This document shows positions 430-39,194 of a stretch of 40,338 bases of DNA, piece by piece. Made by a program: the position numbers and the translations under genes. Where the stretch lies: UHGV virus genome UHGV-0319604; one strand, written 5' to 3'. This DNA is from a virus. The notes beneath the pieces were generated by a model. That model did not search any database and had not been told where the DNA came from. It saw only the letters and a list, made by a program, of their open reading frames with translations. Positions within the stretch are counted from its first letter, which is position 1. Each line of letters begins with the position of its first letter.

Positions 430-1548
430 TTAAATAGCAAGTTTGGTCCATTCCTTCCCGCGATCATCGTTGTATCTGTCAGTGGTTGACTGTGTTTTAT
501 GCCCCAGCAAAATTTTCGTATCGATCCCCTGGGCGCGGTAAAGTCGTTCGGACAATGAGCGCTGTTCGTGAAACGTTGTGGGTGTTTTTCCTGCAGGCGG
601 TACGATACCGGCTGCATCACGTGCCGCGGCAAACTCTTTGGAAACCAAAATCAGATTCACAGGTTTCGCCTTACTGTTCATTTTCCCGTGCAAGAGGTAG
701 GGACTGACAAACCTATCCCTACATTTCCGTATTACATCCTCCAGCGATAAGCCAATGGCTTCACAACGGAGGTTCAGCGGCAATGCAATACGTGCCCCCG
801 TTTTGCTTTGCTCGATGTGCAGATAGCCGTCCTTAATGTCTGAAAATTTCATGTTCGCAATATCCTCCCGGCGCTGACCAGTGACTAACGCAAGCAGCAT
901 CGCTTTATGCGAGTACCGATCCTCGGGTATTTGCGCCAGTATTTTTTTCCATTCGTCCAGAGAGAGGCGCGCACGTGTAACCTTCACCGAGGGTTTTTTT
1001 GTTGCTGCTGGTGGATTCCATCCAGGAGGCACCTCTCCTGCATGTTGTGCTTCAGTGAAAATATCCACCCATACCACCCGGTTACAGAGGGCACTGCTGG
1101 CATGTCCTGCATCCAGATATTCATCCAGTAACACGGCAAAATCCTTTACCTCCAAACTCTTCATTGGCCGGGAACCAAGCCGCCTGGAAAGCAACTCTGC
1201 CATGCGTTTTTTTTCTTTAAAGCGTTTCAGCGATAGCGATCCGGCATCCAGGCTTTGTGTCTGAATCTTCAGATATCGTTCTATCCATGCTTTGAGGCTG
1301 ATCCCGCGCTGTGCTGCTGCTTTTGGAGTATCATCAATTTGGCGCAAATAGTGCTCGGCTTCTGCTGCTGCAATTCTCTGATTTGCCGTTGTGGCTATTT
1401 TTTCCGCTTTCTCTCTGTCTGTTCCCAGGCCGTGGAACTTACCCGTTAAAGGGTTTTTATACTGGTAGTATGTTTTTGCTGTGCGACGATCAAACCGGGC
1501 ATACAGCCCGGAAATTGATACATTATTTTTTCGTGGCCTTGGTGACAT
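430..1548 (-). CDS. int: Phage integrase, tyrosine recombinase family
   Basis: 372-aa ORF; C-terminal catalytic-type motifs HEQRSLSERLY ... LLGH ... DRY (H-x-x-R and terminal Tyr); position at prophage end overlapping excisionase gene. Confidence 0.85.
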   Translation of the reverse strand: MSPRPRKNNVSISGLYARFDRRTAKTYYQYKNPLTGKFHGLGTDREKAEKIATTANQRIAAAEAEHYLRQIDDTPKAAAQRGISLKAWIERYLKIQTQSLDAGSLSLKRFKEKKRMAELLSRRLGSRPMKSLEVKDFAVLLDEYLDAGHASSALCNRVVWVDIFTEAQHAGEVPPGWNPPAATKKPSVKVTRARLSLDEWKKILAQIPEDRYSHKAMLLALVTGQRREDIANMKFSDIKDGYLHIEQSKTGARIALPLNLRCEAIGLSLEDVIRKCRDRFVSPYLLHGKMNSKAKPVNLILVSKEFAAARDAAGIVPPAGKTPTTFHEQRSLSERLYRAQGIDTKILLGHKTQSTTDRYNDDRGKEWTKLAI

Positions 1549-7154: not shown

Positions 7155-8178
7155 TGCCATGCGCTGGGCCAAAAAGGTCAAAACAGGGCGATCGTCTGCA
7201 AAGTCGGTCCTTACCTGGCTGGCTGATATGTGCGGAGCCGACTTAACGACATACCCGTCAATTGCCGCTCTGTCAGAAGCTACTGAGCTAGACAAAAAAA
7301 CAGTTCAGGCAAGCCTGCAGCATCTGATCGCTATGGGATTTATCCAGGACACTGGAGAACGTCGCGGGCGCACAAAACAAATCCCTGTCTACAAATTAAT
7401 CGGGGTGGAGGAAAGCATTGCAGATTCTGAACACACCCAAAAACGGGAACATTACCAAAAACGGGGTCGTTCAAAGGGAACCGAAAACGGGAGTGTTTCA
7501 GAAAACGAACCCAAAAACGGTGCTGTTAAAAAGGGTGAAACGATCCCGTTTTTTCCGTCAAACGATCCCAAAAACGGGATACGGAATCCCCCAGAGGAAT
7601 CTAAAGATCTAAACCCCACACATAGCGCGCGAGGGGAACTGGTTGGATCAGTCAGTGAAAGACCGGTTCCGGAATACCCTGGTCAGCCAGGCACGTTTTT
7701 CCCCGCCTCTCAGTTGCTCGGGAAATTTCCGATGAGCAAGGAGTGGAAACCATCTGCGGACTTTCGCAAACAGGCGAACCTCTGGGGGCGCCCTGTGCCT
7801 GAGAAACTAACTCCCGATGATTTACGCGCTGCACATGCCTGCTTTGTCGATTACTGGATCTCTGAGGGCAAGGCATTCAACCAGACGCAGTGGGAGCAAA
7901 AATTTGCTCTCCACCTGCAGAACACAAAGCCAACAAAACCGCGAGGTAATTCTCATGCAGGACTGGACCCAAACTCCACAGCAAACGCTGCTGTACAACG
8001 AGCGCGCGCAGCACGTGCAGAACAATTACGAGCTCGAGGAGAAGGCGTGGAAATTCTGGGAACTCATGCTGGAAATTTACTCCACCCGCTGGGAGACCAA
8101 AAACGGATCGGCTCCGTCGGACCTATGGATTGCGCAGATTGGGAGTTTGACCAGCGCCCAGACGACGAGCGTCTGTAA
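7144..8178 (+). CDS. Replication initiation protein (O-like: N-terminal HTH domain plus DnaT-like C-terminal region)
   Basis: N-terminal MRWAKKVKTGRSSAKSVLTWLADMCGADLTTYPSIAALSEATELDKKTVQASLQHLIAMGFI is a typical phage replication-protein HTH; followed by a low-complexity linker and a conserved C-terminal region. Last ~75 codons overlap the next gene out of frame. Confidence 0.6.
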   Translation: MSLDAMRWAKKVKTGRSSAKSVLTWLADMCGADLTTYPSIAALSEATELDKKTVQASLQHLIAMGFIQDTGERRGRTKQIPVYKLIGVEESIADSEHTQKREHYQKRGRSKGTENGSVSENEPKNGAVKKGETIPFFPSNDPKNGIRNPPEESKDLNPTHSARGELVGSVSERPVPEYPGQPGTFFPASQLLGKFPMSKEWKPSADFRKQANLWGRPVPEKLTPDDLRAAHACFVDYWISEGKAFNQTQWEQKFALHLQNTKPTKPRGNSHAGLDPNSTANAAVQRARAARAEQLRARGEGVEILGTHAGNLLHPLGDQKRIGSVGPMDCADWEFDQRPDDERL

Positions 8179-8605
8179 TGCGCTGGTGGCGCGCTGTAAA
8201 GCAGGTAATTCCTGGCCGCCGGATCTGGCTGAATTCGTGACGCTGGTGGCGGACATCAGCGGTAACGCTCTTGGGCTAAGAACGGCAGACGTGATGGCGG
8301 AATACAAGCGCTGGCGCAACGAGTCTTACCGCTATGACAGCTCAGAGGTATTTCCGTGGCGTCATCCGGTTTTGTATCAGATTTGCACCGAAATGCGACG
8401 CTCCGGTGTTGAGCGTCAAATGACCCAGACCGAACTGGAAGCACTCGCCGCCTCGCAGCTGGCGAAGTGGGAAAAACATTTGGCGGACGGGCATCCGATC
8501 CCTCCGGTGAGAAAACAAATTGCCGCGCCACGCCATGCTCCAGGACCGACCCCCGCGCAATTGCTTAAAGCGCAGGCCGAAGCAGCAAAATTAAACCGTA
8601 TGTGA
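7955..8605 (+). CDS. Replication protein P-like (helicase loader)
   Basis: Start ATG 7955 with SD GAGG; motifs WPPDLAEFVTLV, FPWRHPVLYQICTEMRR and ELEALAASQLAKWEKHLADGHPIPP align by eye with lambda P (PSPGQFVAWCRE, YPWKSNAHYWLVTNLYQNMR, ELRRKAADELVHMTARINRGEAIPEP) as recalled. Confidence 0.55.
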   Translation: MQDWTQTPQQTLLYNERAQHVQNNYELEEKAWKFWELMLEIYSTRWETKNGSAPSDLWIAQIGSLTSAQTTSVCNALVARCKAGNSWPPDLAEFVTLVADISGNALGLRTADVMAEYKRWRNESYRYDSSEVFPWRHPVLYQICTEMRRSGVERQMTQTELEALAASQLAKWEKHLADGHPIPPVRKQIAAPRHAPGPTPAQLLKAQAEAAKLNRM

Positions 8606-11002: not shown

Positions 11003-11299
11003 ATGAAGAAAGCAGATAGCCTCCATCTTTCACGTGTGGCCGCGCTGGGCTGCATCGTGTGCAGAAACCAGAACTTGGGCGAGACGCCTGCGGAAATTCA
11101 CCATATCCGAACCGGTCAGGGCACCAGTCAACGTGCTGACCATCGGAAATCAATTCCCCTGTGCCATATGCACCACCGCAACGGCGGTTACGGTGTCGCG
11201 ATTCATGCTGGCCGCCGCGCCTGGGAAATGAAGTACGGCACTGAAGCTGAACTGCTGGTGCAGGTTCTCTATTTGCTGGGAGAGCCTGCCGATGAGTAA
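11003..11299 (+). CDS. Small HNH-motif zinc-binding protein (Ref/DUF1364-like)
   Basis: CIVCRNQ ... EIHHIR ... CHMHH pattern (CxxC, HH, CHxHH) typical of small phage HNH-like proteins. Confidence 0.45.
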   Translation: MKKADSLHLSRVAALGCIVCRNQNLGETPAEIHHIRTGQGTSQRADHRKSIPLCHMHHRNGGYGVAIHAGRRAWEMKYGTEAELLVQVLYLLGEPADE

Positions 11300-12953
11300 G
11301 CCAGTCAGTTACGGCTCAGTGTGCAGCGGCATCGAGGCCGCCAGCGTGGCATGGCATTGTTTGGGCTGGCAGCCAGCATGGTTCGCTGAGATAGAAAAAT
11401 TCCCCTCTGCTGTTCTGGCGTACCGCTGGCCGGACGTAAGCAATCTGGGTGATATGACGCAAATCCCCGCGGCAATCCGTGCCGGAAAAATCGAAGCGCC
11501 TGATGTGCTGGTGGGGGGCACCCCTTGCCAGGCGTTCAGCGTTGCGGGTTTACGTAATGGGCTGGCTGACGAACGCGGCCAGTTAACTTTGGCTTTTGTG
11601 GAGCTGGTTAATGCTATCGATGAACTACGCAGAGAACAGGGAAAAACTCCCGTCATCGTCGTCTGGGAAAACGTCCCCGGCGTATTCAGCAGCAAAGATA
11701 ACGCTTTCGGATGTTTTCTTGCAGGGCTTGCCGGCGAAAGCTGCGCGCTGGAATCACCAGGGAAGCGATGGTCAAACGCTGGTTATGTGCTGGGACCAGA
11801 AAGAGCTATTGCCTGGCGAGTGCTCGACGCTCAATTTTTCGGAGTGGCCCAACGACGCAGACGTGTGTTTGTTGTCGCAACAGCTCGAGGGGATATCGAT
11901 CCCGCAAAAATTCTTTTTGAGTCCGAAGGCCTGCGCCGGAATTCTCCGCCGCGCAGAAGTTCGCGGGAAGAAGTTGCCGGAACTTTTAAGGCTCGCGCTA
12001 ATTCAGGTGGCTGGGGACAAGATGTAGAACTTGCCGCAGGTGGCTATATGCAAGTTGTTGTTGGTAGTCACTGGGATAATCCATTGAACCCACACCCAAC
12101 ACTAAATCAGTCATTCAACACTGGTGGTATCGGTGCGAGTAACCAGGAATTATTCAGTCAGCGCGGAAGCGGGATTGTCGGAACGTATGTAAACACTAGC
12201 CGCACACTTTTGGGAAAACCTAACTGCAGCATGGCTGAAGACTTGGAAACTTTTGCCATACATGGAACCCAGGATCCGGATACTCTTCACGATATGGCAC
12301 ATGCCCTGGGGCGCAATCACGGGCAGAAAAACGCGGTTATTGCATTCAGTTCGAAAGATAGCGGCCATGATGCAGCCAGCGACATATCACCAACGCTTCG
12401 CGCAGGGAATAGCAGCAACAGCAATCAGAACGCTGGCGCACCGCCAGCAATAGCTTACGGCATTCCAGGAAACTGGATAGGCCGCGCTCCGCAAAACGGA
12501 GGAAATGCAGTAGAGCCTATGCATGATGTGTCTCCATGTCTGACCGTTGCGGATTGTCACGGCGTTGCATATGCCTTTAAGGCGGGGCAGGGTGCAAAAG
12601 CTAACGGCATAGGATACGCAGCCGAACAAGCCCCAACACTGACAAGCGCAAATAGCGGGAGCAATCAGGCTCCTGCAATCATGCAAAACATGGCCGTTCG
12701 CCGTCTGACTCCTGTCGAGTGCGAACGTCTGCAGGGCTTCCCAGATAACCACACCCTGATCCCCACACAAAAACGTAAGCAGCTCACCGCTGAAGAATAC
12801 GCCTACCTGCGCCACCACCGGCCAGAACTGACTGCAGAACAGGCTTACCGCCTGGCCGCTGATGGACCGCGCTATAAAGCGATCGGAAACTCAATGGCCG
12901 TACCGGTTATGCGGTGGATTGGTTCCCGCATACAGGAGGCGCTGCGTGCATAA
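11292..12953 (+). CDS. DNA (cytosine-5)-methyltransferase, orphan (no adjacent restriction gene), with long low-complexity target-recognition region
   Basis: C5-MTase motifs: GSVCSGIEAAS (motif I-like), GGTPCQAFSVAG (PCQ motif IV), ENV (motif VI), RRRVFVVA (motif VIII), RLTPVECERLQGFPDNH and AIGNSMAVPV (motifs IX/X). Confidence 0.85.
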   Translation: MSKPVSYGSVCSGIEAASVAWHCLGWQPAWFAEIEKFPSAVLAYRWPDVSNLGDMTQIPAAIRAGKIEAPDVLVGGTPCQAFSVAGLRNGLADERGQLTLAFVELVNAIDELRREQGKTPVIVVWENVPGVFSSKDNAFGCFLAGLAGESCALESPGKRWSNAGYVLGPERAIAWRVLDAQFFGVAQRRRRVFVVATARGDIDPAKILFESEGLRRNSPPRRSSREEVAGTFKARANSGGWGQDVELAAGGYMQVVVGSHWDNPLNPHPTLNQSFNTGGIGASNQELFSQRGSGIVGTYVNTSRTLLGKPNCSMAEDLETFAIHGTQDPDTLHDMAHALGRNHGQKNAVIAFSSKDSGHDAASDISPTLRAGNSSNSNQNAGAPPAIAYGIPGNWIGRAPQNGGNAVEPMHDVSPCLTVADCHGVAYAFKAGQGAKANGIGYAAEQAPTLTSANSGSNQAPAIMQNMAVRRLTPVECERLQGFPDNHTLIPTQKRKQLTAEEYAYLRHHRPELTAEQAYRLAADGPRYKAIGNSMAVPVMRWIGSRIQEALRA

Positions 12954-13302
12954 ATACATCATTACCCCAGTCGGAAAACCCCGCATGACCCGGGCTGATA
13001 AGTGGAAACAGCGCCCGCCGGTGATGCGCTATCGCATGTTCTGCGATGAAGCTAGGCTGCATGGAATCCAGGTGCCGGAGAGCGGCGCCCATATCACTTT
13101 CGTTTTGCCGATGCCGCAGAGCTGGAGCAAGAAAAAACGCGCAGCTATGGACGGCCAGCCACACCAGCAAAAGCCTGATCTGGACAACTTAACAAAATCG
13201 CTACTGGATGCCTTGTTTGAGGATGATTCCCACATTTGGGACGCCCGGACATCAAAAGTATGGGGCGAAACCGGAATGATAATTATCGAGGACATGAAAT
13301 GA
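12946..13302 (+). CDS. RusA-like Holliday junction resolvase
   Basis: GTG start after SD AGGAGG (12934-12939), overlapping the MTase stop; motifs PVGKPRMTRADKW and KPDLDNLTKSLLDALFEDDSHIWD resemble the RusA DLDN region. Confidence 0.55.
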   Translation: MHKYIITPVGKPRMTRADKWKQRPPVMRYRMFCDEARLHGIQVPESGAHITFVLPMPQSWSKKKRAAMDGQPHQQKPDLDNLTKSLLDALFEDDSHIWDARTSKVWGETGMIIIEDMK

Positions 13303-13904
13303 CACCACGCCAGAGACGCCAGTATTTTGAAGGGCTGGGAAAAACAGCAATGGCACCACGTAAGAGCTGGCTGGGGAAAAGTATTCTCCTGAATGATGTC
13401 CAGTCCGGTTGGATTAAATCTCTACTTACCGTGTGGGGCGAATGTGTTCGCGGCGGAACTGCCCCGGCGAAACCGTGTGGGCATTCGTGCTGGCAAGTGA
13501 TCAGGGGGAAGAACTGGTCAGATAAAGCGCTTGAACGTTTTACTGCAGCACTGAACCAGGCAAGGGAGGAGGGTTACCGCGGCGAACAGGCAATGCGGCG
13601 GGCACGCTCGATACTCTGGCCTGAACCATCGGCCAGCGTGATTGACGAGGCTATGAGTAATGATGATGCTGAGTTCATGGAGGACGTGGTGCTGCAGGCG
13701 TTTGATTTGAAGGATCCGGTTTATATCGTCGGGCGCCAGTATTACACCACCCGAAAAAAAATATCGGACATCACCAGAGATCTGCAGAGTATGGCGCCAT
13801 GGCTTACGGATAACGAGGCCAGAAAGCGGGTGCGCTGGTGCCTGGAGATATTCAGGGCAAAGGTTTTTCTGTCGGCGCGGAATGCCCTTAAAGAAAATTC
13901 ATGA
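13299..13904 (+). CDS. Putative late-gene antiterminator (Q-like)
   Basis: Position after RusA (ATGA overlap) and immediately before a promoter + short leader + terminator and the lysis cassette; Cys/His-containing ~200-aa protein. Assignment is mainly by synteny. Confidence 0.45.
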   Translation: MTPRQRRQYFEGLGKTAMAPRKSWLGKSILLNDVQSGWIKSLLTVWGECVRGGTAPAKPCGHSCWQVIRGKNWSDKALERFTAALNQAREEGYRGEQAMRRARSILWPEPSASVIDEAMSNDDAEFMEDVVLQAFDLKDPVYIVGRQYYTTRKKISDITRDLQSMAPWLTDNEARKRVRWCLEIFRAKVFLSARNALKENS

Positions 13905-15853: not shown

Positions 15854-16004
15854 TACCGCCTGTGACTGGGTAAAGCCAATCTACCTGACCGATCACGATA
15901 TCGACGTTATGGACCGCCAGACGAAGAAAGACATCCTGGCGCATAACAAAGCGTGGCAGGCGAACTGCCAACAACCAAACGTCATAACCCTCCCCAAAAG
16001 ATAG
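15768..16004 (+). CDS. o-spanin (Rz1-like lipoprotein), +1 frame, overlapping the 3' part of the i-spanin gene
   Basis: Signal peptide with lipobox LIASC (MYSRVLTICLATMLIASCVT...), short Pro-containing mature protein; starts inside and extends beyond Rz. Confidence 0.55.
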   Translation: MYSRVLTICLATMLIASCVTRGSVPVVVDTACDWVKPIYLTDHDIDVMDRQTKKDILAHNKAWQANCQQPNVITLPKR

Positions 16005-16105
16005 GCATTACAGCAGGCATTCACTGAGTGCCTGTGATAGTGCTTTTTAACGATGATATTTACGGGTAATCTGGTTTACTCTGAACAGCACTTAAGAGGG
16101 AACAT

Positions 16106-16378
16106 ATGCCTAATCTGTCAGCCTTGGATTCATGGTTAAAAGTAAGCACGTGGGATACACATCATCCGTTAGACCAACGGCGCTTTTTTAAGGCAGTGTA
16201 TCAGTTGATATCATCGAATGATAAACTTGTGGAACCGCAATATGTTCATGATTACATCGTTAATTATCACGGTGGGAATAAGAATGCTGAACATGTGGAA
16301 AACATCGCAACTATATACGCTGCAAAGTACGACGACATTTACAGTTTTATTTATGAGAACCAAATAGAACTTAACTAA
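16106..16378 (+). CDS. Hypothetical protein (90 aa), AT-rich moron
   Basis: ORF with SD AGAGGGA; visibly lower GC than flanking phage genes; own terminator downstream. Confidence 0.45.
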   Translation: MPNLSALDSWLKVSTWDTHHPLDQRRFFKAVYQLISSNDKLVEPQYVHDYIVNYHGGNKNAEHVENIATIYAAKYDDIYSFIYENQIELN

Positions 16379-16398
16379 ATTTTTTGCTGCTATTTGAA

Positions 16399-16426
16399 GC
16401 CATCTATATTCATAGGTGGCTTTTTT
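16399..16426 (+). terminator. Rho-independent terminator after the AT-rich moron
   Basis: gccatcta-tattca-taggtggc hairpin (one mismatch) followed by tttttt. Confidence 0.5.
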
Positions 16427-16454
16427 ATGCGCAGCACACATCAAAATACACATC

Positions 16455-16994
16455 ATGCAAACAATCATGTGCATCGGTAGCGGCCCGTCGCTGGCACCGA
16501 ATGACTGCTTGCGAGCTAACGATTCAGGTCTGCCAGTTATAGCCGTTAACAACAGTTGGGCTGCAGTGCCAGGCTGTCAGCACATTTATGCAGCAGACTG
16601 CTGCTGGTGGGAAGAATACGGCGCAGGCATAACATCCAACGCTGCCCGGTGGTGTGGTGATGAGTTCACGGCCAGGCGTTTTGGCATTAACTGGCTACCT
16701 TCTGCAATACCCGGTTCGTTTAATTCTGGTCAGCGAGCGATTGAGTTGGCGATCCACCTTGGCGCCAGCCGCGTTCTGTTGCTGGGCTATGACTGCTCAA
16801 TACGAAACGGCACCCACTGGCACGGCAACCACGCTCAGCTGTCCAACCCGGACAAATTCAGCGTAGCGCGCTGGCAGGATGAATTCTCCCGCCTCAGAGT
16901 TATTGCTGGTGGTGTCGAGATAATTAACTGCTCCCGCTTTACGCGGCTTACCTGCTTTCCCCGACAGTCCCTCGAGACTGCACTTTCTCTGTAG
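16455..16994 (+). CDS. Cst-II-like (GT42/DUF115-type) nucleotide-sugar transferase-fold protein
   Basis: N-terminal IMCIGSGPSLAPND resembles the GNGPSL motif at the start of Cst-II-type sialyltransferases; later FNSGQRAIELAIHLGASRVLLLGYDCS resembles the ITSG...IALGYKEIYLSGID segment of that family. Comparison from memory; start codon uncertain (16455 or 16467). Confidence 0.45.
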   Translation: MQTIMCIGSGPSLAPNDCLRANDSGLPVIAVNNSWAAVPGCQHIYAADCCWWEEYGAGITSNAARWCGDEFTARRFGINWLPSAIPGSFNSGQRAIELAIHLGASRVLLLGYDCSIRNGTHWHGNHAQLSNPDKFSVARWQDEFSRLRVIAGGVEIINCSRFTRLTCFPRQSLETALSL

Positions 16995-17001
16995 GAAACT
17001 T

Positions 17002-17868
17002 ATGAAAAGACGAAAGGTCTGCATCCGCGGGATGTATGGGCTTGGTGACTCTATTTACCAGCGGGCGTTTGTACGCCAGTTCCCCGGTGCGTTTCTGCGT
17101 ACACCCTGGCCGGAGCTTTACAGCGATCTCGATGTGAAATTTATTCGCTCTAATACTGCGCTCAGGACTCAGCGAAAAAACGAAGAGCAAACCAACGTGG
17201 AGTTTATTCCGGAACCATCGCGGCCGTCAGAGATACTGACAATTTTTTATGGCCCCGAAGAGCTGAGCAAAGGATCCATCATTGACGCCATGACCTGGCA
17301 ATTTGGCAAGATGGCCAGCGTTTTTGATCTGCCGTCATTCGGTGAATCGCCGGTACAGGTTGATAAGCCGGTTGCAGTAATCCGTCCGGCCACCGTTCGC
17401 AAAGAGTGGGCGAACCCCGCGCGAAATCCTGACCCCAAATACCTCGCGGAAGCCGCACGCGAGCTGCGTAAACATTTTTACGTTGTGAGCCTGGCTGATC
17501 TTGAAGAGGGTGAAGAGTGGCTGGTGGGTGAACTTCCGGAGGCCGATCTCTATCTGCACAAAGGCGAGCTGTCACTAACGGAAATGCTGGCGCTGGTGGA
17601 ACATGCCGCCGTTGTGGTTTCCGGGGTTGGCTGGGCGCTGCCAGCAGCTGTCTGCTACAAAACGCCTGTTTACATCGTTCAGGGTGGATGCGGGGCCCAC
17701 AATGCCCCTCACATCGTCACCGATCCGGAAATGGATCTTTCCCGCGTCGGCTGGGCGCAACCGGATGATTACTGCATGTGCGCGAGCATGGAGCACGACT
17801 GCAGCAAGCACATCACCGGTTTCCTCGATAAATTCAAAGGCTGGCTACATGACATTGTTCTCACATGA
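17002..17868 (+). CDS. Glycosyltransferase family 9-like (heptosyltransferase-like) protein
   Basis: N-terminal VCIRGMYGLGDSIYQRAFVRQF matches the GT9 I-R-x-x-x-LGD signature; C-terminal LSLTEMLALVEHAAVVVSGVGWALPAAVCYKTPVYIV matches the GT9 C-terminal donor-binding segment. Confidence 0.55.
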   Translation: MKRRKVCIRGMYGLGDSIYQRAFVRQFPGAFLRTPWPELYSDLDVKFIRSNTALRTQRKNEEQTNVEFIPEPSRPSEILTIFYGPEELSKGSIIDAMTWQFGKMASVFDLPSFGESPVQVDKPVAVIRPATVRKEWANPARNPDPKYLAEAARELRKHFYVVSLADLEEGEEWLVGELPEADLYLHKGELSLTEMLALVEHAAVVVSGVGWALPAAVCYKTPVYIVQGGCGAHNAPHIVTDPEMDLSRVGWAQPDDYCMCASMEHDCSKHITGFLDKFKGWLHDIVLT

Positions 17869-18499
17869 AATGCAAAACGGCCTTGTATGGCTGCCCGAGC
17901 TGGGCATTGGACGTTTTCCGGTACCACCAGAGCGGCCATACGACGCCAGTTATTTTGCAAAGTATCGGCAGATGGCGCAGACCAACATGGGGATTCAGCT
18001 GAATGCGGCACGTATCCAGCTGGTGGGCCGCCATCATCAGGGCAAAGTGCTCGACGTGGGGATCGGGTCCGGTCAGTTCGTGGAGACACGGCCTGATACA
18101 TGGGGTTATGACGTTAATCCTGAAGGGATCGCCTGGCTAAAAGCTGGTGGCCGCTGGGCTAACCTTTACGACCCTTATTTCCCTGACGATGATTTTCCTG
18201 CGCTGACGTTCTGGGATTCGCTGGAGCACATCGACGATCCAGAAGCAGCTGTTGCGCGTGCTGGTCAGTGGGTTTTTGTGTCTCTGCCTGTCTTCAAAAA
18301 TGCAGAACATATCCTGACGTCCCGGCATTACCGCAAGGACGAGCACATCTGGTATTTCACCGACGAAGGCATCCGGCGCTGGTTTGACGCGCAGGGTTTC
18401 GCCTGTGCTGAACACAACACCATTGAGAGCATGTTGGGGCGGGATGGCATCAGCAGCTATGCATTCCGGAGGGTCAGCAATGCCAGCAAGAACGCCTAA
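17849..18499 (+). CDS. Class I SAM-dependent methyltransferase
   Basis: Motif I-like KVLDVGIGSGQF, followed by YDVNPEG and FWDSLEHIDDP; start ATG 17849 overlaps upstream stop by 20 nt. Confidence 0.6.
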   Translation: MTLFSHEMQNGLVWLPELGIGRFPVPPERPYDASYFAKYRQMAQTNMGIQLNAARIQLVGRHHQGKVLDVGIGSGQFVETRPDTWGYDVNPEGIAWLKAGGRWANLYDPYFPDDDFPALTFWDSLEHIDDPEAAVARAGQWVFVSLPVFKNAEHILTSRHYRKDEHIWYFTDEGIRRWFDAQGFACAEHNTIESMLGRDGISSYAFRRVSNASKNA

Positions 18500-18848
18500 G
18501 GCATGTCGTAAGCGAGGTTGCAGGCAGACCACAACGGACCGCAGCGGATACTGCGATGACCACCGTGGCGAGGGCTGGCGACAGTACAAACCCGGCGTGT
18601 CACGTCATCAGCGCGGCTATGGTGCGTCATGGGATAAGACCCGTCTCCGTATTCTCAAAAGAGACCGGGGGTTATGCCAGGAATGTTTGCGCCGTGGCGC
18701 AATAACCGAGGCGACCAGCGTTGACCACAGGCTGCCGCTGGCGCACGGAGGCAGCGACAGTGACGACAACCTTGAAAGCCTGTGTACCCCATGTCATCGG
18801 GCGAAGACGGCGCGAGAGCGCCTGTCAGGCAGGCGGGGGGGAGGGTAA
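18480..18848 (+). CDS. HNH endonuclease (terminase-associated)
   Basis: CRKRGC ... CDDH ... CQEC ... VDHRLPLAHGGSDSDDNLESLCTPCHRAK; directly upstream of the small terminase gene. Confidence 0.8.
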   Translation: MPARTPKACRKRGCRQTTTDRSGYCDDHRGEGWRQYKPGVSRHQRGYGASWDKTRLRILKRDRGLCQECLRRGAITEATSVDHRLPLAHGGSDSDDNLESLCTPCHRAKTARERLSGRRGGG

Positions 18849-18956
18849 ATCTCTCCAGCCTTTGCCCCTCCGGACTGCCCGCCTCATCAAATTTTTACGC
18901 GCCCAAAATAAGAAACTTTTTTCCTGAAGGTTTCGCCTATTGAATTGGAGGTTTTA

Positions 18957-19394
18957 ATGGGTGGTGTTGTGCGATCTTCCGGTGGCGGCCGTAAGCGTAA
19001 TTTACCCTCAAACCTGAAGAGCAAACTGACCAGGATTACGCCGCCGGATGAATTAATGAGCGACATTGCGATCCGCATCTGGAAAACGCAGAGCAAAATT
19101 TTAATCGAACGTGGCGTCTTTGATCTGGAGGATGCGCCTCTACTCTTGGCGTACTGCAATGCGTTTCACCTGATGGTTGAGGCCGAAAAAGTCATCGCAG
19201 AAGACGGGCTGACAGTATCAAGCGAAATGGGGGGTGAGAAAAAGCACCCTGCAGTTAACGTCCGTAATGACTCCGTTTCTCAGCTCGCTCGTCTGGGGTC
19301 ACTTCTCGGGTTAGACCCGCTTAGCCGCATAAGAATGACCAGCGGTAAAAATGATCCGGACGATGAAGGGAATGAATTTGATGAGTTTGACTGA
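18957..19394 (+). CDS. Terminase small subunit
   Basis: ATG after SD GGAGG; ~145-aa protein directly upstream of and abutting the large terminase gene. Confidence 0.65.
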   Translation: MGGVVRSSGGGRKRNLPSNLKSKLTRITPPDELMSDIAIRIWKTQSKILIERGVFDLEDAPLLLAYCNAFHLMVEAEKVIAEDGLTVSSEMGGEKKHPAVNVRNDSVSQLARLGSLLGLDPLSRIRMTSGKNDPDDEGNEFDEFD

Positions 19395-23093: not shown

Positions 23094-24323
23094 ATGAAAT
23101 TGCATGAACTGAAACAAAAACGTAATACCATCGCGACTGACATGCGTGCGCTGAATGAAAAAATCGGCGATAACACATGGACGGATGAACAGCGCACCGA
23201 GTGGAATAAAGCGAAGTCAGAGCTGGAAGCCCTCGATGAGCGCATTGCCCGCGAAGAAGAGCTGCGCCGTCAGGACCAGACCTACGTTGACGAAAACGAG
23301 GAAGAGCAGCGCAATAATCTGGACCCGGATAAAGACTCGCAGCAGGACGAAAAACGCGGGCTGATCTTTGATAAATGGATGCGTCACGGTGCCAGCGAGC
23401 TGAGTTCCGAAGAGCGCAAAGCCTTACGTGAACTGCGTGCGCAGGGTGTGGCACCGGACGAAAAGGGCGGCTATACCGTGCCTGATACCTTCCTGGCAAA
23501 AGTGGTCGAGCAGATGAAAGCCTATGGTGGCATTGCCAGCGTGGCACAGATCATCACTACGTCCGACGGCCGTACCATGGAGTGGGCGACCGCTGATGGC
23601 ACCGCTGAAGTGGGCGTGCTGCTGGGCGAGAACGAGGAAGCCGGGGAAGAAGATACCGAATTCGGCATGGATAGTCTGGGTGCAGTGAAAATGACATCCA
23701 AGATTATCCGCGTCTCCAACGAGCTGCTGCAGGATAGTGCGATCGACATGGAAGCCTATCTTTCCCGTCGTATCGCGGAGCGTATTGGCCGCGGTGAAGC
23801 ACGTTATCTTATTCAGGGTACCGGTACCGGCACGCCAAAACAGCCGAAAGGTCTGAAAACATCCGTAACTGGTACCACTCAGACGGCCGCCGCTACCGCC
23901 GTGAAATGGCAGGAAATTCTGGCGCTGAAACACAGCATCGATCCGGCATACCGCCGCGGTCCGAAGTTCCGCCTGGCGTTCAATGATAATACGCTGAAAC
24001 TCATCAGTGAGATGGAAGACGGTCAGGGGCGTCCTCTGTGGCTGCCGGATATTGTCGGCGTGGCGCCAGCGTCTGTGCTCAACGTTCCGTATGTCATCGA
24101 CCAGGAAATTGATGATATCGGCGCGGGGCAGAAATTTATGTACTGCGGCGACTTCGATCGCTTCATCATCCGTCGTGTGCGCTACATGATCCTGAAGCGT
24201 CTGGTTGAGCGTTACGCAGAATTCGACCAGACCGGCTTCCTGGCGTTCCATCGCTTTGACTGTATCCTCGAAGATACCTCTGCGATTAAAGCGCTGGTGG
24301 GCAAAGGCTCTGCAAGCAGCTAA
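23094..24323 (+). CDS. Major capsid protein (HK97 fold) with N-terminal coiled-coil delta domain
   Basis: 409-aa ORF; charged coiled-coil N-terminus (scaffold-like) then capsid domain; canonical position after the protease. Confidence 0.9.
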   Translation: MKLHELKQKRNTIATDMRALNEKIGDNTWTDEQRTEWNKAKSELEALDERIAREEELRRQDQTYVDENEEEQRNNLDPDKDSQQDEKRGLIFDKWMRHGASELSSEERKALRELRAQGVAPDEKGGYTVPDTFLAKVVEQMKAYGGIASVAQIITTSDGRTMEWATADGTAEVGVLLGENEEAGEEDTEFGMDSLGAVKMTSKIIRVSNELLQDSAIDMEAYLSRRIAERIGRGEARYLIQGTGTGTPKQPKGLKTSVTGTTQTAAATAVKWQEILALKHSIDPAYRRGPKFRLAFNDNTLKLISEMEDGQGRPLWLPDIVGVAPASVLNVPYVIDQEIDDIGAGQKFMYCGDFDRFIIRRVRYMILKRLVERYAEFDQTGFLAFHRFDCILEDTSAIKALVGKGSASS

Positions 24324-35527: not shown

Positions 35528-36114
35528 TGGCACTGAATGATGAATATGAGCAGCTTCTCTATAAGCTGCTGCCACCCGGCCCGGCATGGGAGGGAGAGAA
35601 CCCGCTGATTGAAGGTCTGGCACCGTCTCTCACGCGCGTACATCAGCGTGCTAATGCGCTGATGAAGGAAATCGACCCGGCTCAAACGACAGAGCTGATA
35701 GACCGTTATGAAACCGTCTACGGCCTGCCCGATTCGTGTACTCCTGACGGCGTGCAGTCGCTACGACAGCGCCAGCAGCGTCTTGACGCGAAAGCCAACG
35801 TTGCGGGCGGGATTAACGAACAGTTTTACCGCAACCAGCTGGACGCGCTGGGCTACACCACGGCCACTATCGAACAGTTTCAGAACCTTGACAGCACCCC
35901 TGATCCGGAATGGGGGGAGTTCTGGCGCTATTACTGGCGCGTGAATATTCCGGCAGATGCCAATGTCAGCTGGCAGACCTGCACCAGCGCGTGCAATTCC
36001 GCAATCAGAACATGGGGCGACACGATCGCAGAGTGCGTCATTGAAAAACTGGCGCCATCGCACACCGTTGTTGTTTTCGCTTACCCGGAAGGAACAAACA
36101 ATGCATCGAATTGA
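35527..36114 (+). CDS. Tail protein (Mu gp48-like)
   Basis: 195-aa ORF immediately upstream of the tail fibre gene. Confidence 0.6.
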
Positions 36115-37480
36115 TACACCTACGGCACAGGCCGATAAATTTGGACCCGGCAAAAATGGTTTTACGAATGGCGACCCGGCGACCGGCCGCCGCGCTACCG
36201 ACCTGAACAGTGACATGTGGGATGCTGTTCAGGAGGAGATCTGCGCTGTAATTGAAAAGTCAGGGCTGGCCCTGAATAAAGATCAGCACGATCAGCTTTA
36301 TCAGGCGATCGTTAAAATTATCACTTCCAAAATTCCAGATGCTCTCCTGAAAAAAAACAACCTGTCTGACCTGACAGATAAAGTGCTGGCGCGGGCCAAC
36401 CTGCAGTTAAAGACGGCAGCGCAAAAAGATGTCGTCACCTCTAAAACTGACGTGACCGCTGATCGAGTTTTAACTACTGGCTGGATGAGTCTCGGTGGAT
36501 ACGGTACAGATAATATGATTGCGGGCGCTGATGCACTAAAACCGCTGAGAAACGGTTTTTACGGCGTACAGACTGAGCCTACATATGGAAACGCTGCGCT
36601 AATTAGCTTTGGCTATGACTCAGGTTCGCAGGTTCATATTATTGCGAGGCAGGGCGGGCAGGCTCCAGCACTGGGTGTATGTGGCTCCACGCCTCAAGGG
36701 GTGTTTGGTAACTGGGGAAAAATCTATACTGAATTTCAGAAACCCACTGCTGGGGATGTAGGTGCGCTGCCAATTGGGGGCGGAACTTTAAGCGGCGCTT
36801 TAGCTGTTGTTCAAAATGGCGCAGCAATAGCAGTCCAGAGCAGAACAGCATCTCAAGCGGTGTATATGATAGGTAAGGATTATGATGGCGCAAATTGCTG
36901 GTACGTAGGACGTGGAGGGGCTAATTACAGCATTGCACTTTATAACTATAAAGGTACTAACGGATTAAATATTAACGAAGATGGTTCAATAGCTTTAAAT
37001 CTGGCAAACGGGAAACCATTTACCATAAACGGGCAAGTGGTTCCTTCCAATTATACAAATTTTGATTCACGATATGTATTAACGGATGGAGCTACATACG
37101 CAGGATTTGTGAACGGTGATGCAACCCGGCCTTATATGCGCCATCGAGTTAGCAATGCAGTGGTGGAGCTGGCAAAAAAAGGGGATTCGTATACTAAAGC
37201 AGAGAGCGAAAGCCGCTACCAGCCAAAAGGAAATTACACCCCAGCAGGGCAGGCTTACACAAAGACTGAAAGTGATGCACGATATGTGCAAGGAGTACAG
37301 CTTGGCGCTCGGTCACTAAGTGCATCATCTAATGCTTCGGGAGGTAATCTTTATCTTCCTGCTGGTTGTGTAGCTACTGGATACACTTCGCCTGGTTCTT
37401 CTAACGCTAACGATGTGAGGTTTTACTATAAACCCATTCAGCGGAATATTAACGGAACGTGGGTAACAATCTCAGGCTAA
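36101..37480 (+). CDS. Tail fibre protein (conserved N-terminus, variable AT-richer C-terminal receptor-binding part)
   Basis: Start ATG 36101 ([29 protein letters not shown]...); tandem protein repeats [10 protein letters not shown] / [10 protein letters not shown]; GC drops in the 3' half. Confidence 0.75.
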
Positions 37481-37490
37481 AGGAATTATA

Positions 37491-38075
37491 ATGCAAAACA
37501 TTAAGAATTTTAAAGTCGTAAAACCAACACCTAAACAATTGGAACTGTATACTGCAATGGATGGAACAGTCCCTATATTCCTACAATCAGAAGACGGCAG
37601 AGATTGGTTTGAATGTCACGAATTGTTTTCAGATGAAACAGTGAAAATTATGTACGACAGCAACGGGATTATTTGCTCAGTCGTTGATGAACGAGTCCCT
37701 GAGCGAGGAAATATCTATGCGGTGTCGATGTTTTACCCTGAAAATATGAGCGTAGCTGAAGTAGCACTAAGCGATTATCCTGAAGGGGTGAATATTGACG
37801 GATCTTGGATGTATAGTGATGGGAAAATTGTTCCGGTTCCTGTTGACGTGGTTTCGGAAGCAGAAAAAGAGAAAGCGCAGCGATTAAGTGAAGCGGAGGT
37901 AGCGATTGCGCCACTTCAAAGAGCCGTAAAATACGGGATCGCTACTGATGAAGAAAAAAAATCGCTTGAAAAATGGGAAGTATACACTGTCATGCTAAGT
38001 CGTGTTAATGCTTCTCAGGCTCCGGATATTTTGTGGCCTGAGAAGCTAGGGGGAGAGACAGAAACTACAATGTGA
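37491..38075 (+). CDS. Tail fibre assembly protein
   Basis: 194-aa ORF directly after the fibre gene; C-terminal ...EKWEVYTVMLSRVNASQAPDILWP typical of Tfa chaperones. Confidence 0.7.
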   Translation: MQNIKNFKVVKPTPKQLELYTAMDGTVPIFLQSEDGRDWFECHELFSDETVKIMYDSNGIICSVVDERVPERGNIYAVSMFYPENMSVAEVALSDYPEGVNIDGSWMYSDGKIVPVPVDVVSEAEKEKAQRLSEAEVAIAPLQRAVKYGIATDEEKKSLEKWEVYTVMLSRVNASQAPDILWPEKLGGETETTM

Positions 38076-38081
38076 GGGTTC

Positions 38082-39194
38082 TTACCTTTTGGAACAATCC
38101 TCGTTACTATTCAAGCATTCATCAATCAAATCAAGTATAGGACTTACATCTGCATCCATAACGCGACGCTCTTTTAGTCTCACCTGTTTAGCTAATTTAT
38201 AGTTTGGCCCCCACACATCCGCATTATCTGCTGGGGCGACGAGTATTTTGAATGGGTAAACACAGATTAGCCTTTTCTGAAATGCTCTGGATACATGTAC
38301 AAAAGAAGTGTCTGGGGAAATAACTAGAGCGCTTTCTTTTATTATTTGTGCTGCGGAAAAGAATGACGGCGTAGTATTTTTAGTTACATTTTCTGAATCG
38401 GGGATAGATGCAATTTTATGCTGCTCCCCGAGGATGATCATGTGATACGAATTGGCGTGTTTAGCCATATGATTTGTTATGGTTTCAATTTGCGAGGCTG
38501 AAAAAAAGCGCTCGCTGACGCTACCATAAGGGATAAATGACACTATTATTTTATTAGTGGTCTTTTTAATAAATTCCTGTGCCGCATCAGCATCTTTTTT
38601 AGGAATGATAACAGAGTAATCATAATCTGTTACACTGATACCTAACCCTTCAAGCAGGTCGATGTACCGTGTGCTAATATGAGCCAAGGGATTTTTTATT
38701 TTAATGACTTCATCGTATATTCGATATTTGTTTGTAAATCCAATGGTCTTATAAGGCTTGGAGAGTCTAATTAAATTAAATGTATCAACATTAGAGTGAG
38801 TTACCTCATGCGAATCAATGAAAGTAAATGGATTGATTGCATTGAGCGCAGCAAGGAGCGGCTTTTTATTATTTGGTTCATATAAATATAACCCGTGTAA
38901 ATTTTTCCACTCTTTAAATAAAAAATAAGTTCTTTTATCTGCTATTACAGACACCCGGTAATTGTTTCTCACCAGTGTATCAATTACCCCTCCAATAACA
39001 ACAGCATCCCCAATACCTTTAGCGATGAAAGGTATTACCAAATGGTTTGTTCCCGAATCAAGCCTGTCTTTATTGCGGCGGGCGCGAGTAGCAATCTCAC
39101 TTAATAAACTCAATTTGAGCTTTAATTTTGCTCTTTTGAGATAATAATTTTTAGATCTGTTTGCTTTCCTAAGCCATTTGATCACTGTTTTCAC
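38082..39194 (-). CDS. Glycosyltransferase family 9-like (heptosyltransferase-like) protein, AT-rich moron
   Basis: 370-aa ORF; IAKGIGDAVVIGGVIDTL (GT9 N-terminal signature) and ALVISPDTSFVHVSRAFQKRLICVY (GT9 C-terminal segment); clearly lower GC than the phage backbone; opposite strand to tail genes. Confidence 0.55.
   Translation of the reverse strand: MKTVIKWLRKANRSKNYYLKRAKLKLKLSLLSEIATRARRNKDRLDSGTNHLVIPFIAKGIGDAVVIGGVIDTLVRNNYRVSVIADKRTYFLFKEWKNLHGLYLYEPNNKKPLLAALNAINPFTFIDSHEVTHSNVDTFNLIRLSKPYKTIGFTNKYRIYDEVIKIKNPLAHISTRYIDLLEGLGISVTDYDYSVIIPKKDADAAQEFIKKTTNKIIVSFIPYGSVSERFFSASQIETITNHMAKHANSYHMIILGEQHKIASIPDSENVTKNTTPSFFSAAQIIKESALVISPDTSFVHVSRAFQKRLICVYPFKILVAPADNADVWGPNYKLAKQVRLKERRVMDADVSPILDLIDECLNSNEDCSKR

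What the first reader, a model, noticed from the sequence alone, without database searches (positions are those of the whole stretch)
16455..18499. Three-gene putative glycan-modification operon between the lysis and packaging modules
Three translationally coupled genes encode a Cst-II-like (GxGPSL motif) nucleotide-sugar transferase-fold protein, a GT9 heptosyltransferase-like protein and a class I SAM methyltransferase. They are embedded in the late operon immediately before the HNH/terminase genes and have backbone-like GC, so they look like long-resident phage genes rather than recent cargo. Cst-II-type enzymes use CMP-activated Kdo/sialic-type sugars and GT9 enzymes use ADP-heptose, both LPS inner-core chemistries. 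The cassette may decorate host LPS core (superinfection exclusion, serum resistance) or glycosylate and methylate a virion component. I am not aware of this combination in this genomic position being described.
Basis: partly seen in the sequence, partly recalled or inferred. Interest (0 to 1): 0.75.

Follow-up and report, generated by a model that had tools for sequence, protein, structure and literature searches.

The report
Phage late-operon glycosylation cassette
Three overlapping late genes in this Enterobacter-type prophage encode two sugar-transferring enzymes and a methyltransferase; the cassette is mobile, widespread among phages and functionally untested, and it most likely decorates the phage particle with sugars rather than remodelling the host's LPS.

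Summary
Three tightly packed or overlapping genes lie between the lysis genes and HNH/terminase:
- A (16455-16994) has a Maf/Cst-II-like fold.
- B (17002-17868) has a GT9/TibC-like GT-B fold.
- C (17849-18499) is a class I SAM methyltransferase.

- The trio is an accessory cassette, not fixed backbone. Phages with 95-98% identical head and terminase genes lack it.
- It occupies at least three late-operon slots: after Q, before HNH/terminase, and inside head or neck modules of D3/PAJU2-like phages.
- Gene order is near-invariant: A is present in 78/78 B-carrying loci and C in 76/77. Natural A-B and methyltransferase-B fusions exist.
- It has no promoter of its own, and none of the three proteins has a membrane segment.
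- A sibling phage (and the isolated E. coli phage Fostie) carries a different two-glycosyltransferase cassette in the same slot. One of those enzymes is homologous to Che8 gp110, which is required for mycobacteriophage capsid glycosylation.

Best explanation (about 0.5): a late-expressed cytoplasmic system that O-glycosylates and methylates virion proteins. The LPS and DNA targets remain rivals.

The prophage also carries a second, canonical GT9 gene (38082-39194, minus strand, low GC). It is the better candidate for LPS conversion.

The parts
16455..16994 (+). Gene A: 179-aa minimal Maf/Cst-II-like (MptE-like fold) nucleotide-sugar transferase, homologue of P1 PmgO / P7 HdmB / D3 orf7 / PAJU2 ORF010
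17002..17868 (+). Gene B: 288-aa compact GT-B glycosyltransferase of GT9/TibC-like fold with a C-terminal CxC-x4-H-x-C cluster; homologue of D3 orf12 / PAJU2 ORF011
17849..18499 (+). Gene C: 216-aa class I SAM-dependent methyltransferase with a conserved ~55-aa N-terminal extension; homologue of D3 orf13 / PAJU2 ORF012
   Evidence: Methyltransf_23 at 2.3e-13 and 50.6 bits; phrog_6564 at 2e-98. The SAM motif VLDVGIGSGQFV and D81 are invariant. It has no DPPY or PCQ DNA-methylase motifs (by reading the sequence). The nearest PDB profile hits are UbiG-type O-methyltransferases at only E ~0.01.
18480..18848 (+). Context, not part of the cassette: HNH endonuclease gene overlapping the 3' end of C by 20 nt and followed by small and large terminase
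   Evidence: Pfam HNH at 1.8e-14; Terminase_4/P27 for 18945-19394.

Best explanation
The trio is a mobile, late-expressed, cytoplasmic glycosylation cassette that most likely modifies proteins of the phage particle: capsid, neck or tail.

**Proposed mechanism**
- A is a minimal Maf/Cst-II-type enzyme. It transfers a CMP-activated ulosonic acid. CMP-Kdo is the donor every Gram-negative host supplies.
- B is a compact GT9/TibC-like GT-B enzyme. It transfers a second sugar, plausibly from ADP-heptose.
- C methylates the product with SAM.
- All three act in the cytoplasm on virion proteins made from the same late transcript, so no phage sugar-biosynthesis genes are needed.

**Shown here**
- The folds and the conservation of nucleotide-binding motifs.
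- Strict A-B-C linkage and natural fusions.
- A late-operon or structural-module location in many phage lineages.
- Accessory (present/absent) status.
- Positional replacement by a Che8-type cassette.

**Inferred**
- The acceptor being a virion protein.
- The order of the reactions.
- The identity of both donors.
For: 1. **Expression context.** No sigma-70-like promoter lies in 15.5-19.5 kb (0 found, 3.6 expected). The genes overlap each other and HNH. Of 80 related loci, 43 have Q -> ABC -> holin/endolysin and 26 have lysis -> ABC -> HNH/TerS.
2. **Structural-module embedding in other lineages.**
   - PAJU2: head-closure -> ABC -> gp10-like.
   - D3: orf7 directly after the capsid gene, orf12-13 in the neck module.
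   - An A-B fusion plus C lies between Phage_HCP and HK97-gp10-like/Tail_completion genes.
   - A 1214-aa multi-glycosyltransferase follows the decoration protein and a 333-aa ORF, the putative capsid gene.
   - A LicD-B fusion with methyltransferases, a cytidylyltransferase and LicD follows a protease-capsid fusion gene.
   - A T4-like cyanophage has B and C next to neck gene gp14.
3. **Functional linkage.** A is present in 78/78 and C in 76/77 B-carrying loci. About 20 of 120 B homologues are A-B fusions. Methyltransferase-B, GT9-B and LicD-B fusions also exist.
4. **Nearest solved structures include cytoplasmic protein O-glycosyltransferases.**
   - B shares with TibC a four-stranded N-lobe (DSSP compared with PMC4358343) and a Cys-rich metal-site-like insertion in the C-lobe.
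5. **Positional equivalence.**
   - Sibling phage L102 has capsid ~97% and large terminase 98% identical to the window.
   - L102 and the isolated E. coli phage Fostie carry phrog_1579 and phrog_854 glycosyltransferases in the same Rz -> -> HNH slot.
   - The 199-aa enzyme is 34% identical over 192 aa (E 1e-25) to Che8 gp110. Che8 gp110 is reported as essential for capsid glycosylation (PMC12363180; PMC11256854).
   - The 491-aa enzyme has 40-42% identical full-length homologues in mycobacteriophages, which make up 568 of the 606 matching phage records.
   - In Che8 the glycosyltransferase cluster also sits just before an HNH gene at the genome end.
6. **Soluble proteins.** No transmembrane segments and no signal-peptide-like hydrophobic N-terminus.
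7. **Depositor annotation.** The PAJU2 depositors labelled ORF010, the A homologue, 'structural protein'. I could not verify this.
8. **Dispensability.** P1 pmgO is non-essential, as expected of a decorating function (PMC10695390).
Against: - No acceptor has been identified and there is no experimental datum for any family member.
- Cst-II-type and GT9 folds are classically LOS/LPS-core enzymes, and B is structurally as close to RfaF/WaaC as to TibC.
- In lambdoid prophages the cassette sits at moron hotspots next to lysis genes. Its location alone could therefore reflect insertion tolerance.
- Homology of the alternative cassette to Che8 gp110 is moderate (34%). Its function in enterobacterial phages is untested.
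- The cyanophage host is thought to lack heptose and Kdo in its LPS (my own knowledge), so donors cannot be uniform across the family.
- The link between cassette presence and a Ser-rich capsid C-terminus rests on essentially one evolutionary event.
Confidence: 0.5

Rival explanations
1. Host-envelope modification. The enzymes add Kdo/heptose-type sugars and a methyl group to LPS inner core or another host surface glycan. The purpose would be superinfection exclusion, or preventing progeny from re-adsorbing to cell debris.
For: - GT9 and GT42-like folds are the canonical LPS/LOS core enzymes.
- B's C-lobe aligns with WaaF's ADP-heptose-binding region.
- Relatives are fused or adjacent to LicD, sulfotransferase and canonical GT9 domains, which also decorate LPS and teichoic acids.
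- In lambdoid prophages the cassette lies at moron hotspots next to lysis genes.
Against: - No own promoter, and co-transcription with late genes only.
- P1 pmgO is under a late promoter and C1 operators.
- No flippase, bactoprenol or other membrane component.
- The cassette is embedded in head or neck modules in many lineages.
- LPS synthesised in the last minutes before lysis would have little effect.
- The same prophage has a separate canonical GT9 gene in a classic conversion position: opposite strand, GC 0.38, after the tail-fibre genes.
Confidence: 0.2
2. DNA hypermodification. The glycosyltransferases and the methyltransferase decorate phage DNA before packaging, to evade restriction.
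For: - The cassette is adjacent to HNH/terminase in the window.
- Phage GT-B enzymes are reported to install Kdo and heptose on 5hmC using the E. coli metabolome (bioRxiv 10.1101/2023.12.21.572611).
- The window encodes a C5 DNA methylase (11292-12953).
Against: - No TET/5mYOX or hydroxymethylase was found among the window genes scanned.
- C lacks DNA-methylase motifs (sequence reading).
- In most relatives the cassette sits after Q or inside head or neck modules, not beside DNA-metabolism genes.
Confidence: 0.07
3. Another target. The cassette may modify a host protein (for example flagellin or pilin, as Maf does) or make a small glycoconjugate used during late infection.
For: - A's best structural match is a flagellin glycosyltransferase.
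- The acceptor is unknown.
Against: - A lacks the N- and C-terminal domains flanking the catalytic core of the 632-residue Maf protein: A is 179 aa.
- Late expression minutes before lysis argues against remodelling host organelles.
- The association with structural modules would be left unexplained.
Confidence: 0.15

Closest known systems
Mycobacteriophage virion glycosylation cassettes (Che8 gp108-110; Corndog, Myrna; Freeman et al. 2023 as cited in PMC11256854 and PMC12363180)
   Same: - Phage-encoded soluble glycosyltransferases that are accessory to the phage.
- In Che8 they lie immediately before an HNH gene at the terminase end of the genome.
- A Che8 gp110 homologue occupies exactly the trio's slot in a sibling phage and in E. 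coli phage Fostie.
   Different: - A, B and C have no detectable BLAST similarity to Che8 gp108-110.
- The trio includes a methyltransferase.
- The hosts are Gram-negative.
- There is no experimental evidence for the trio.
Maf flagellin nonulosonic-acid glycosyltransferases (PF01973; structure 5mu5)
- Glycine-rich GxGPS loop.
- Cytoplasmic protein O-glycosylation (own knowledge).
   Different: - A is only the ~180-aa catalytic core of a ~630-aa protein.
- The Pfam score is below the gathering threshold.
- Typical hosts (Enterobacter, E. coli K-12 for P1) are not known to make CMP-pseudaminic or CMP-legionaminic acid (own knowledge).
Cst-I/Cst-II sialyltransferases (CAZy GT42)
   Same: - GxGPSL motif.
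- hhalign places A's N32, S91-G92 and D113 on Cst-II N31, S132-G133 and D154.
   Different: - Lower structural similarity than to Maf.
- A is much shorter.
- No significant sequence-family match.
- The catalytic His equivalent was not established.
GT9 LPS heptosyltransferases WaaC/WaaF (PF01075)
- The C-lobe aligns with WaaF at E 9e-4.
- An N-terminal G-x-G-D motif sits where WaaC has its catalytic Asp13 (own knowledge for WaaC).
   Different: - No Pfam GT9 hit and no profile match to WaaC.
- B is 30-60 residues shorter, with a four-stranded N-lobe.
- B has an invariant Cys3-His cluster. To my knowledge WaaC and WaaF have no such metal site.
Bacterial autotransporter heptosyltransferases TibC/AAH (BAHT family)
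- Reduced four-stranded N-lobe and a Cys-based metal finger inserted in the C-lobe (one search compared).
- Cytoplasmic O-heptosylation of a protein substrate.
   Different: - B lacks the N-terminal beta-barrel (TibC residues 1-97).
- B's cluster is CxC-x4-H-x-C within 10 residues, rather than four Cys spread over ~30.
[quoted passage not shown]
Lysogenic-conversion O-antigen/LPS modification modules (gtrABC, Oac, D3 iap-wzy-beta)
   Same: Phage-encoded glycan-modifying genes that are accessory to the phage.
   Different: From my own knowledge, those modules are expressed in lysogens, are usually near the attachment site and include membrane proteins. The trio is late-operon embedded, soluble and promoter-less.

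Membership tests
Pfam PF01973 MptE-like / Maf (DUF115) | Sequence match above the Pfam gathering score | tested here: inconclusive
   The window protein scores 26.5 bits against a cut-off of 34.6, and only residues 84-118 match. Most close homologues carry a precomputed PF01973 assignment.
Pfam PF01973 MptE-like / Maf (DUF115) | Maf-type catalytic-domain fold | tested here: met
Pfam PF01973 MptE-like / Maf (DUF115) | Flanking N- and C-terminal domains of full-length Maf (~630 aa) | tested here: not met
   A is 179 aa and is almost entirely covered by the catalytic-domain alignment.
CAZy GT42 (Cst-I/Cst-II) | GxGPSL CMP-binding loop and the Asn/Ser-Gly/Asp nucleotide contacts | tested here: inconclusive
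CAZy GT42 (Cst-I/Cst-II) | Transfer of a CMP-activated sialic or ulosonic acid | not testable with these tools
   Needs an enzyme assay with CMP-Kdo, CMP-Neu5Ac, CMP-Pse and CMP-Leg.
CAZy GT9 / Pfam PF01075 | Sequence match to Glyco_transf_9 | tested here: not met
   No Pfam hit at E<0.1. No hhalign match to WaaC. Only E 9e-4 to the WaaF C-lobe. The HMM family is well separated: 770 of 862 hits have E ≤1e-10.
CAZy GT9 / Pfam PF01075 | GT-B fold closest to the heptosyltransferases | tested here: met
CAZy GT9 / Pfam PF01075 | Use of ADP-heptose as donor | not testable with these tools
   Needs an enzyme assay. The presence of B in a Synechococcus phage cautions against assuming one donor for the whole family.
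BAHT (TibC/AAH) protein heptosyltransferases | N-terminal beta-barrel, beta-hairpin thumb, four-Cys iron finger and dodecamer (PMC4358343) | tested here: not met
   B starts directly with the N-lobe and has a C3H cluster, not C4. The oligomeric state is not testable here.
Class I SAM methyltransferase (Methyltransf_23) | Pfam match above threshold with SAM motif I | tested here: met
   50.6 bits against a cut-off of 27. The VLDVGxGxG motif and the acidic motif II residue are invariant.
Phage virion-glycosylation cassette (Che8 type) | Homology to Che8 gp108-110 | tested here: not met
   BLASTP of A, B and C against gp108-112 gives nothing below E 0.18.
Phage virion-glycosylation cassette (Che8 type) | Glycans covalently attached to capsid or tail proteins in a cassette-dependent way | not testable with these tools
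   Needs virion mass spectrometry. Only positional equivalence was shown.
Lysogenic-conversion LPS modification module | Own promoter or expression in the lysogen, and membrane-embedded components | tested here: not met
   No promoter-like sites in 15.5-19.5 kb. No transmembrane segments. The genes overlap neighbouring late genes.

The most novel reading that the evidence does not exclude
Many phages of Gram-negative bacteria would coat their particles with short O-linked, methylated glycans. These include D3, PAJU2, Enterobacter/Citrobacter/Serratia prophages, jumbo phages and, with A alone, P1.

- The glycans would be built from the host's universal LPS-inner-core precursors, CMP-Kdo and ADP-heptose.
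- A previously unrecognised Maf-like plus TibC-like enzyme pair would build them.
- The acceptor might be, for example, the Ser-rich C-terminal tail of the capsid protein.
- Sibling phages would swap this cassette for a Che8-type cassette at the same locus. That would create interchangeable virion 'glycotypes'.
Probability: 0.2. Interest if true: 0.85.

Novelty: new variant of a known kind. Interest (0 to 1): 0.6.

Why it matters
- **Scope.** In the literature I could search, virion glycosylation by phage-encoded enzymes is reported only for mycobacteriophages. From my own knowledge it is also known for giant algal viruses.
- **Extension to Gram-negative phages.** If this cassette does the same in phages of Enterobacteria and Pseudomonas, glycan coats would extend to clinically relevant phages. 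The B family alone has 862 clusters at 50% identity and relatives in at least 586 IMG/VR contigs.
- **Practical consequences.** Glycan coats could affect antibody recognition in phage therapy, particle stability and adsorption.
- **Tools.** The cassette would provide compact cytoplasmic protein O-glycosylation enzymes that need no dedicated sugar-biosynthesis genes.
- **Annotation.** Databases currently call A an 'alpha-2,3-sialyltransferase' or 'morphogenetic protein', and leave B as hypothetical.

Tried and rejected
- **Near-identity DNA searches.** Searching 16000-19000 against the phage collection and the trio against complete E. coli genomes found nothing covering the trio.
- **hhalign of the B profile.** No match to WaaC and only a weak match to WaaF.
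- **NCBIfam.** No assignment for A, B or C.
- **AFDB fold search.** The afdb50 library was unavailable.
- **BFVD.** Only distant GT9/TibC-labelled phage proteins, with TM about 0.6.
- **Literature.**
  - Ten searches found no functional study of PmgO, D3 orf7/12/13, PAJU2 ORF010-012 or DUF115 in phages.
  - The primary Che8 paper (Freeman 2023) is not held. Its findings are cited second-hand.
- **Capsid C-terminus co-variation.**
  - All 25 trio-positive loci end in ...SS.
  - One large trio-less clade ends in ...SVGG.
  - Close trio-less siblings keep ...SASS.
  - The signal therefore amounts to one evolutionary event and I do not treat it as evidence.
- **DNA glycosylation.** I considered this rival seriously because. 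I rated it low because no hydroxymethylase or TET-type enzyme was found and B does not resemble T4 beta-glucosyltransferase.
- **P1 PmgQ.** It is annotated 'glycosyltransferase', but shows no BLAST similarity to Che8 or Fostie glycosyltransferases.
Full report
**1. What is in the sequence**

The window is a lambdoid-organised prophage with a myovirus-type tail. In order it encodes:
- integrase (430-1548, minus strand);
- CII, O/P-like replication genes, a C5 DNA methylase, RusA and a Q-like antiterminator (13236-13904);
- two holins, a GH19 endolysin and Rz;
- the three genes of the finding;
- HNH, a P27-type small terminase, large terminase, portal, S78 protease and an HK97-type capsid protein;
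- head completion protein, sheath, tape measure, tail fibre and a fibre assembly protein.

The closest homologues of the three proteins come from the Enterobacter cloacae complex.

Gene limits:
- A = 16455-16994 (179 aa).
- B = 17002-17868 (288 aa).
- C = 17849-18499 (216 aa).

The upstream ATG for C is supported by the conserved N-terminus of its homologues. B and C overlap by 20 nt. C and HNH also overlap by 20 nt. A and B are 7 nt apart. GC content is 0.55 for all three, the same as the late region. One addition: a small low-GC gene (16106-16378, GC 0.377, phrog_3439) sits between Rz1 and A.

**2. What the proteins are**

*Gene A*
- It belongs to phrog_4603 (3e-60), which is labelled 'alpha-2,3-sialyltransferase'.
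- It matches Pfam MptE-like only below threshold.
- A 60-sequence alignment gave a confident model (pLDDT 91).
- The invariant GSGPSL, N32, NSG and GYD motifs align with the CMP-contacting motifs of Cst-II.
- A is 40% identical to P1 PmgO and P7 HdmB.

*Gene B*
- It has no Pfam or NCBIfam match but belongs to phrog_6804 (1e-128).
- Its model is very confident (pLDDT 96.9).
- Sequence-level relatedness to GT9 is marginal (WaaF C-lobe E 9e-4; WaaC none).
- B is compact, and its N-lobe has four strands.
- It carries an invariant C258-x-C260-x4-H265-x-C267 cluster just before the C-terminal helix.
- The TibC paper describes a four-stranded N-lobe and a four-Cys 'iron finger' inserted in the C-lobe, used for protein-substrate recognition (PMC4358343).
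- B resembles TibC in these two respects. It lacks TibC's beta-barrel, so it is not a BAHT family member.

*Gene C*
- It is a class I SAM methyltransferase (Methyltransf_23, 50.6 bits) with a conserved 55-residue N-terminal extension.
- Its substrate cannot be read from sequence.
- It lacks DNA-methylase motifs.

None of the three proteins has a transmembrane segment or a signal-peptide-like N-terminus.

**3. The three genes are one functional unit**
- At least 586 IMG/VR contigs encode B relatives.
- Among the 80 best loci, A precedes B in 78 of 78 loci with sequence available.
- C follows B in 76 of 77. The exception has a truncated B.
- About 20 of 120 B homologues are natural A-B fusion proteins.
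- An exhaustive profile search found 862 clusters at 50% identity, 563 of them at E ≤1e-30.
- Some of these are fused to a methyltransferase, a canonical Glyco_transf_9 domain, LicD or an MptE-like domain.

The sub-modules can separate:
- D3 has A (orf7) apart from B-C (orf12-13).
- A T4-like Synechococcus phage has B-C only.
- P1, Citrobacter phage phiNP and locus L162 have A without B-C.
- P1 PmgP is a weak paralogue of A.

**4. Where the cassette sits**

In lambdoid prophages it occupies one of two slots at the head of the late operon:
- Q -> ABC -> holin/endolysin in 43 loci.
- Lysis -> ABC -> HNH/TerS in 26 loci, including the window.
- 11 loci could not be classified.

In other lineages it lies inside head or neck modules:
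- PAJU2: head closure -> ABC -> gp10-like.
- PAJU2-like metagenomic phages: an A-B fusion plus C between Phage_HCP and HK97-gp10-like/Tail_completion genes.
- D3: orf7 directly after the capsid gene.
- One phage: a 1214-aa multi-glycosyltransferase after the decoration protein and a 333-aa ORF that is the putative capsid gene.
- Another phage: LicD-B, two methyltransferases, a cytidylyltransferase and LicD directly after a protease-capsid fusion gene.
- Another: GT9-intein-B, a methyltransferase, a sulfotransferase and a C-like methyltransferase.
- Jumbo phage Eowyn: gp005-gp003.

No promoter-like site exists in 15.5-19.5 kb of the window (0 found, 3.6 expected). Expression is therefore by read-through of the Q-dependent late transcript. 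P1 pmgO likewise lies behind a late promoter and C1 operators. It is dispensable for plaque formation (PMC10695390).

**5. It is accessory, not backbone**

A scan with the window's capsid protein returned 80 close relatives.
- Phages with capsid 95-97% and large terminase 96-98% identical lack the trio. Examples are L089, L090, L097, L099, L102, L104 and L105.
- So does a large clade with 92% identical capsid protein.
- In these phages the Rz -> HNH slot holds assorted small morons: lipoproteins, a TonB_C lipoprotein, KilA-N and TerB-like genes.

In D3/PAJU2-like phages the neck position is stable.

**6. The key comparison**

- In sibling phage L102 the same slot carries a 491-aa glycosyltransferase (phrog_1579, 4e-248) and a 199-aa glycosyltransferase (phrog_854, 1e-72).
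- Isolated E. coli phage Fostie has the same layout: Rz -> hypothetical -> GT -> GT -> HNH -> TerS -> TerL.
- The 199-aa enzyme is 34% identical over 192 residues (E 1e-25) to Che8 gp110.
- The 491-aa enzyme has 40-42% identical full-length homologues in mycobacteriophages, which account for 568 of the 606 matching phage records.
- Che8 gp110 is cited as one of the glycosyltransferases essential for capsid glycosylation.
- Che8 capsid and tail-tube proteins carry glycans that shield virions from antibodies (PMC12363180; PMC11256854). The primary paper is not held.
- In Che8 the glycosyltransferase cluster gp108-110 also lies just before an HNH gene at the terminase end of the genome.

So two non-homologous glycosyltransferase cassettes alternate at one locus in otherwise near-identical phages. 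One of them is related to an experimentally validated virion-glycosylation system.

**7. Explanation and rivals**

The best-supported reading (about 0.5) is a late-expressed cytoplasmic cassette that O-glycosylates and methylates virion proteins.
- A and B act as sequential or parallel transferases, and C caps the glycan.
- The donors CMP-Kdo and ADP-heptose are inferred from fold class and from what every Gram-negative host provides.
- Presence of B in a cyanophage warns that donors may vary.

The LPS rival (about 0.2) keeps the fold argument. It is weakened by the timing of expression, the absence of membrane components and the structural-module embedding. It is also weakened by a separate canonical GT9 gene in the same prophage:
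- It lies at 38082-39194 on the minus strand (370 aa).
- It scores 23.5 bits against Pfam Glyco_transf_9, just above the gathering score of 22.
- It sits in a region of GC about 0.38 directly after the tail-fibre genes, a textbook conversion-gene position.

The DNA-modification rival (about 0.07) has real precedent for Kdo and heptose on 5hmC. Here it lacks a hydroxymethylase or TET-type enzyme, and B does not resemble T4 beta-glucosyltransferase. Other targets take about 0.15.

Two weak leads are not used as evidence:
- The PAJU2 depositors call ORF010 (the A homologue) a 'structural protein'.
- All 25 trio-positive relatives have a capsid protein ending in Ser-Ser. The large trio-less clade ends in ...SVGG. 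Phylogeny confounds this comparison.

**8. Novelty**

- The genes are not new as sequences. D3, PAJU2 and P1 have carried them for decades, PHROGs has families for all three, and some annotators already write 'GT9' or 'sialyltransferase'.
- Ten literature searches (call numbers listed under what I tried) found no functional study of them.
- I file the cassette as a new variant of a known kind, phage virion-glycosylation systems. It uses different enzyme families and adds a methyltransferase.
- The caveat is that the target is inferred, not shown.

Noticed in passing
window 38082-39194 (- strand): A second, canonical GT9-like gene (370 aa). It scores 23.5 bits against Pfam Glyco_transf_9, just above the gathering score of 22, and matches phrog_36326 (unknown function). 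It lies in a GC ~0.38 region, directly after the tail fibre (35957-37480) and fibre-assembly (37491-38075) genes and before a Rha gene. This is a classic lysogenic-conversion moron position, so it is a better LPS-core candidate than the trio. In the phage collection it has only weak Campylobacter phage matches.
   Followed up: partly
L102 2756-5380; Escherichia phage Fostie PP925832 (L180 7010-9039): Sibling phages carry a Che8-type two-glycosyltransferase cassette (phrog_1579 plus phrog_854) in exactly the Rz -> HNH slot that the trio occupies in the window. The small enzyme is 34% identical to Che8 gp110.
   Followed up: yes
window 16106-16378: A small gene (90 aa, phrog_3439, unknown function) with GC 0.377 lies between Rz1 and gene A. 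It is flanked by weak hairpin/T-run elements after Rz1 (~16010-16050) and at 16397-16426. It is probably a separate moron.
   Followed up: partly
window 24300-24323 and MCP genes of L004-L166: The capsid protein ends in ...GKGSASS. All 25 trio-positive relatives end in Ser-Ser. A large trio-less clade (45 loci) ends in ...GSVGG. Close trio-less siblings keep SASS. This is a possible acceptor tail, but the signal rests on about one evolutionary event.
   Followed up: partly
L010 8876-9415: An HNH homing-endonuclease gene (phrog_99, 2e-53) is inserted between B and C in one relative. This is the only interruption of the cassette seen.
   Followed up: yes
L162 2107-2646: A relative with gene A alone directly before HNH, with no B or C. 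P1 and Citrobacter phage phiNP show the same pattern. A can therefore function without B-C.
   Followed up: partly
L174/L175 10001-13848; L178 3994-8920; L176 8950-11671: Expanded versions of the cassette in metagenomic phages. One has a LicD-B fusion, Methyltransf_24, a cytidylyltransferase, LicD and Methyltransf_23 directly after the capsid gene. Another has GT9-intein-B, a methyltransferase, a sulfotransferase and Methyltransf_23. A third has a canonical GT9 next to a methyltransferase-B fusion.
   Followed up: partly
L172 (phage P1) 4944-7502: P1 pmgO and pmgP are both weakly MptE-like, making them tandem paralogues. pmgQ in the same late/C1-controlled operon is annotated 'glycosyltransferase'. 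This suggests a P1 glycosylation operon that is non-essential in CRISPRi screens.
   Followed up: partly
window 11292-12953: An unusually long (553 aa) C5-cytosine DNA methyltransferase whose Pfam match is split into two stretches. It is preceded by a small HNH-like gene (11003-11299, phrog_1588). No TET-type partner was found.
   Followed up: no
AP009624 (PAJU2) ORF010, 7780-8349: The original depositors annotated the A homologue as 'structural protein', alongside the major tail protein. The Eowyn record repeats the label. If the label rests on virion proteomics, the enzyme may travel with the particle. I could not check the source paper.
   Followed up: partly
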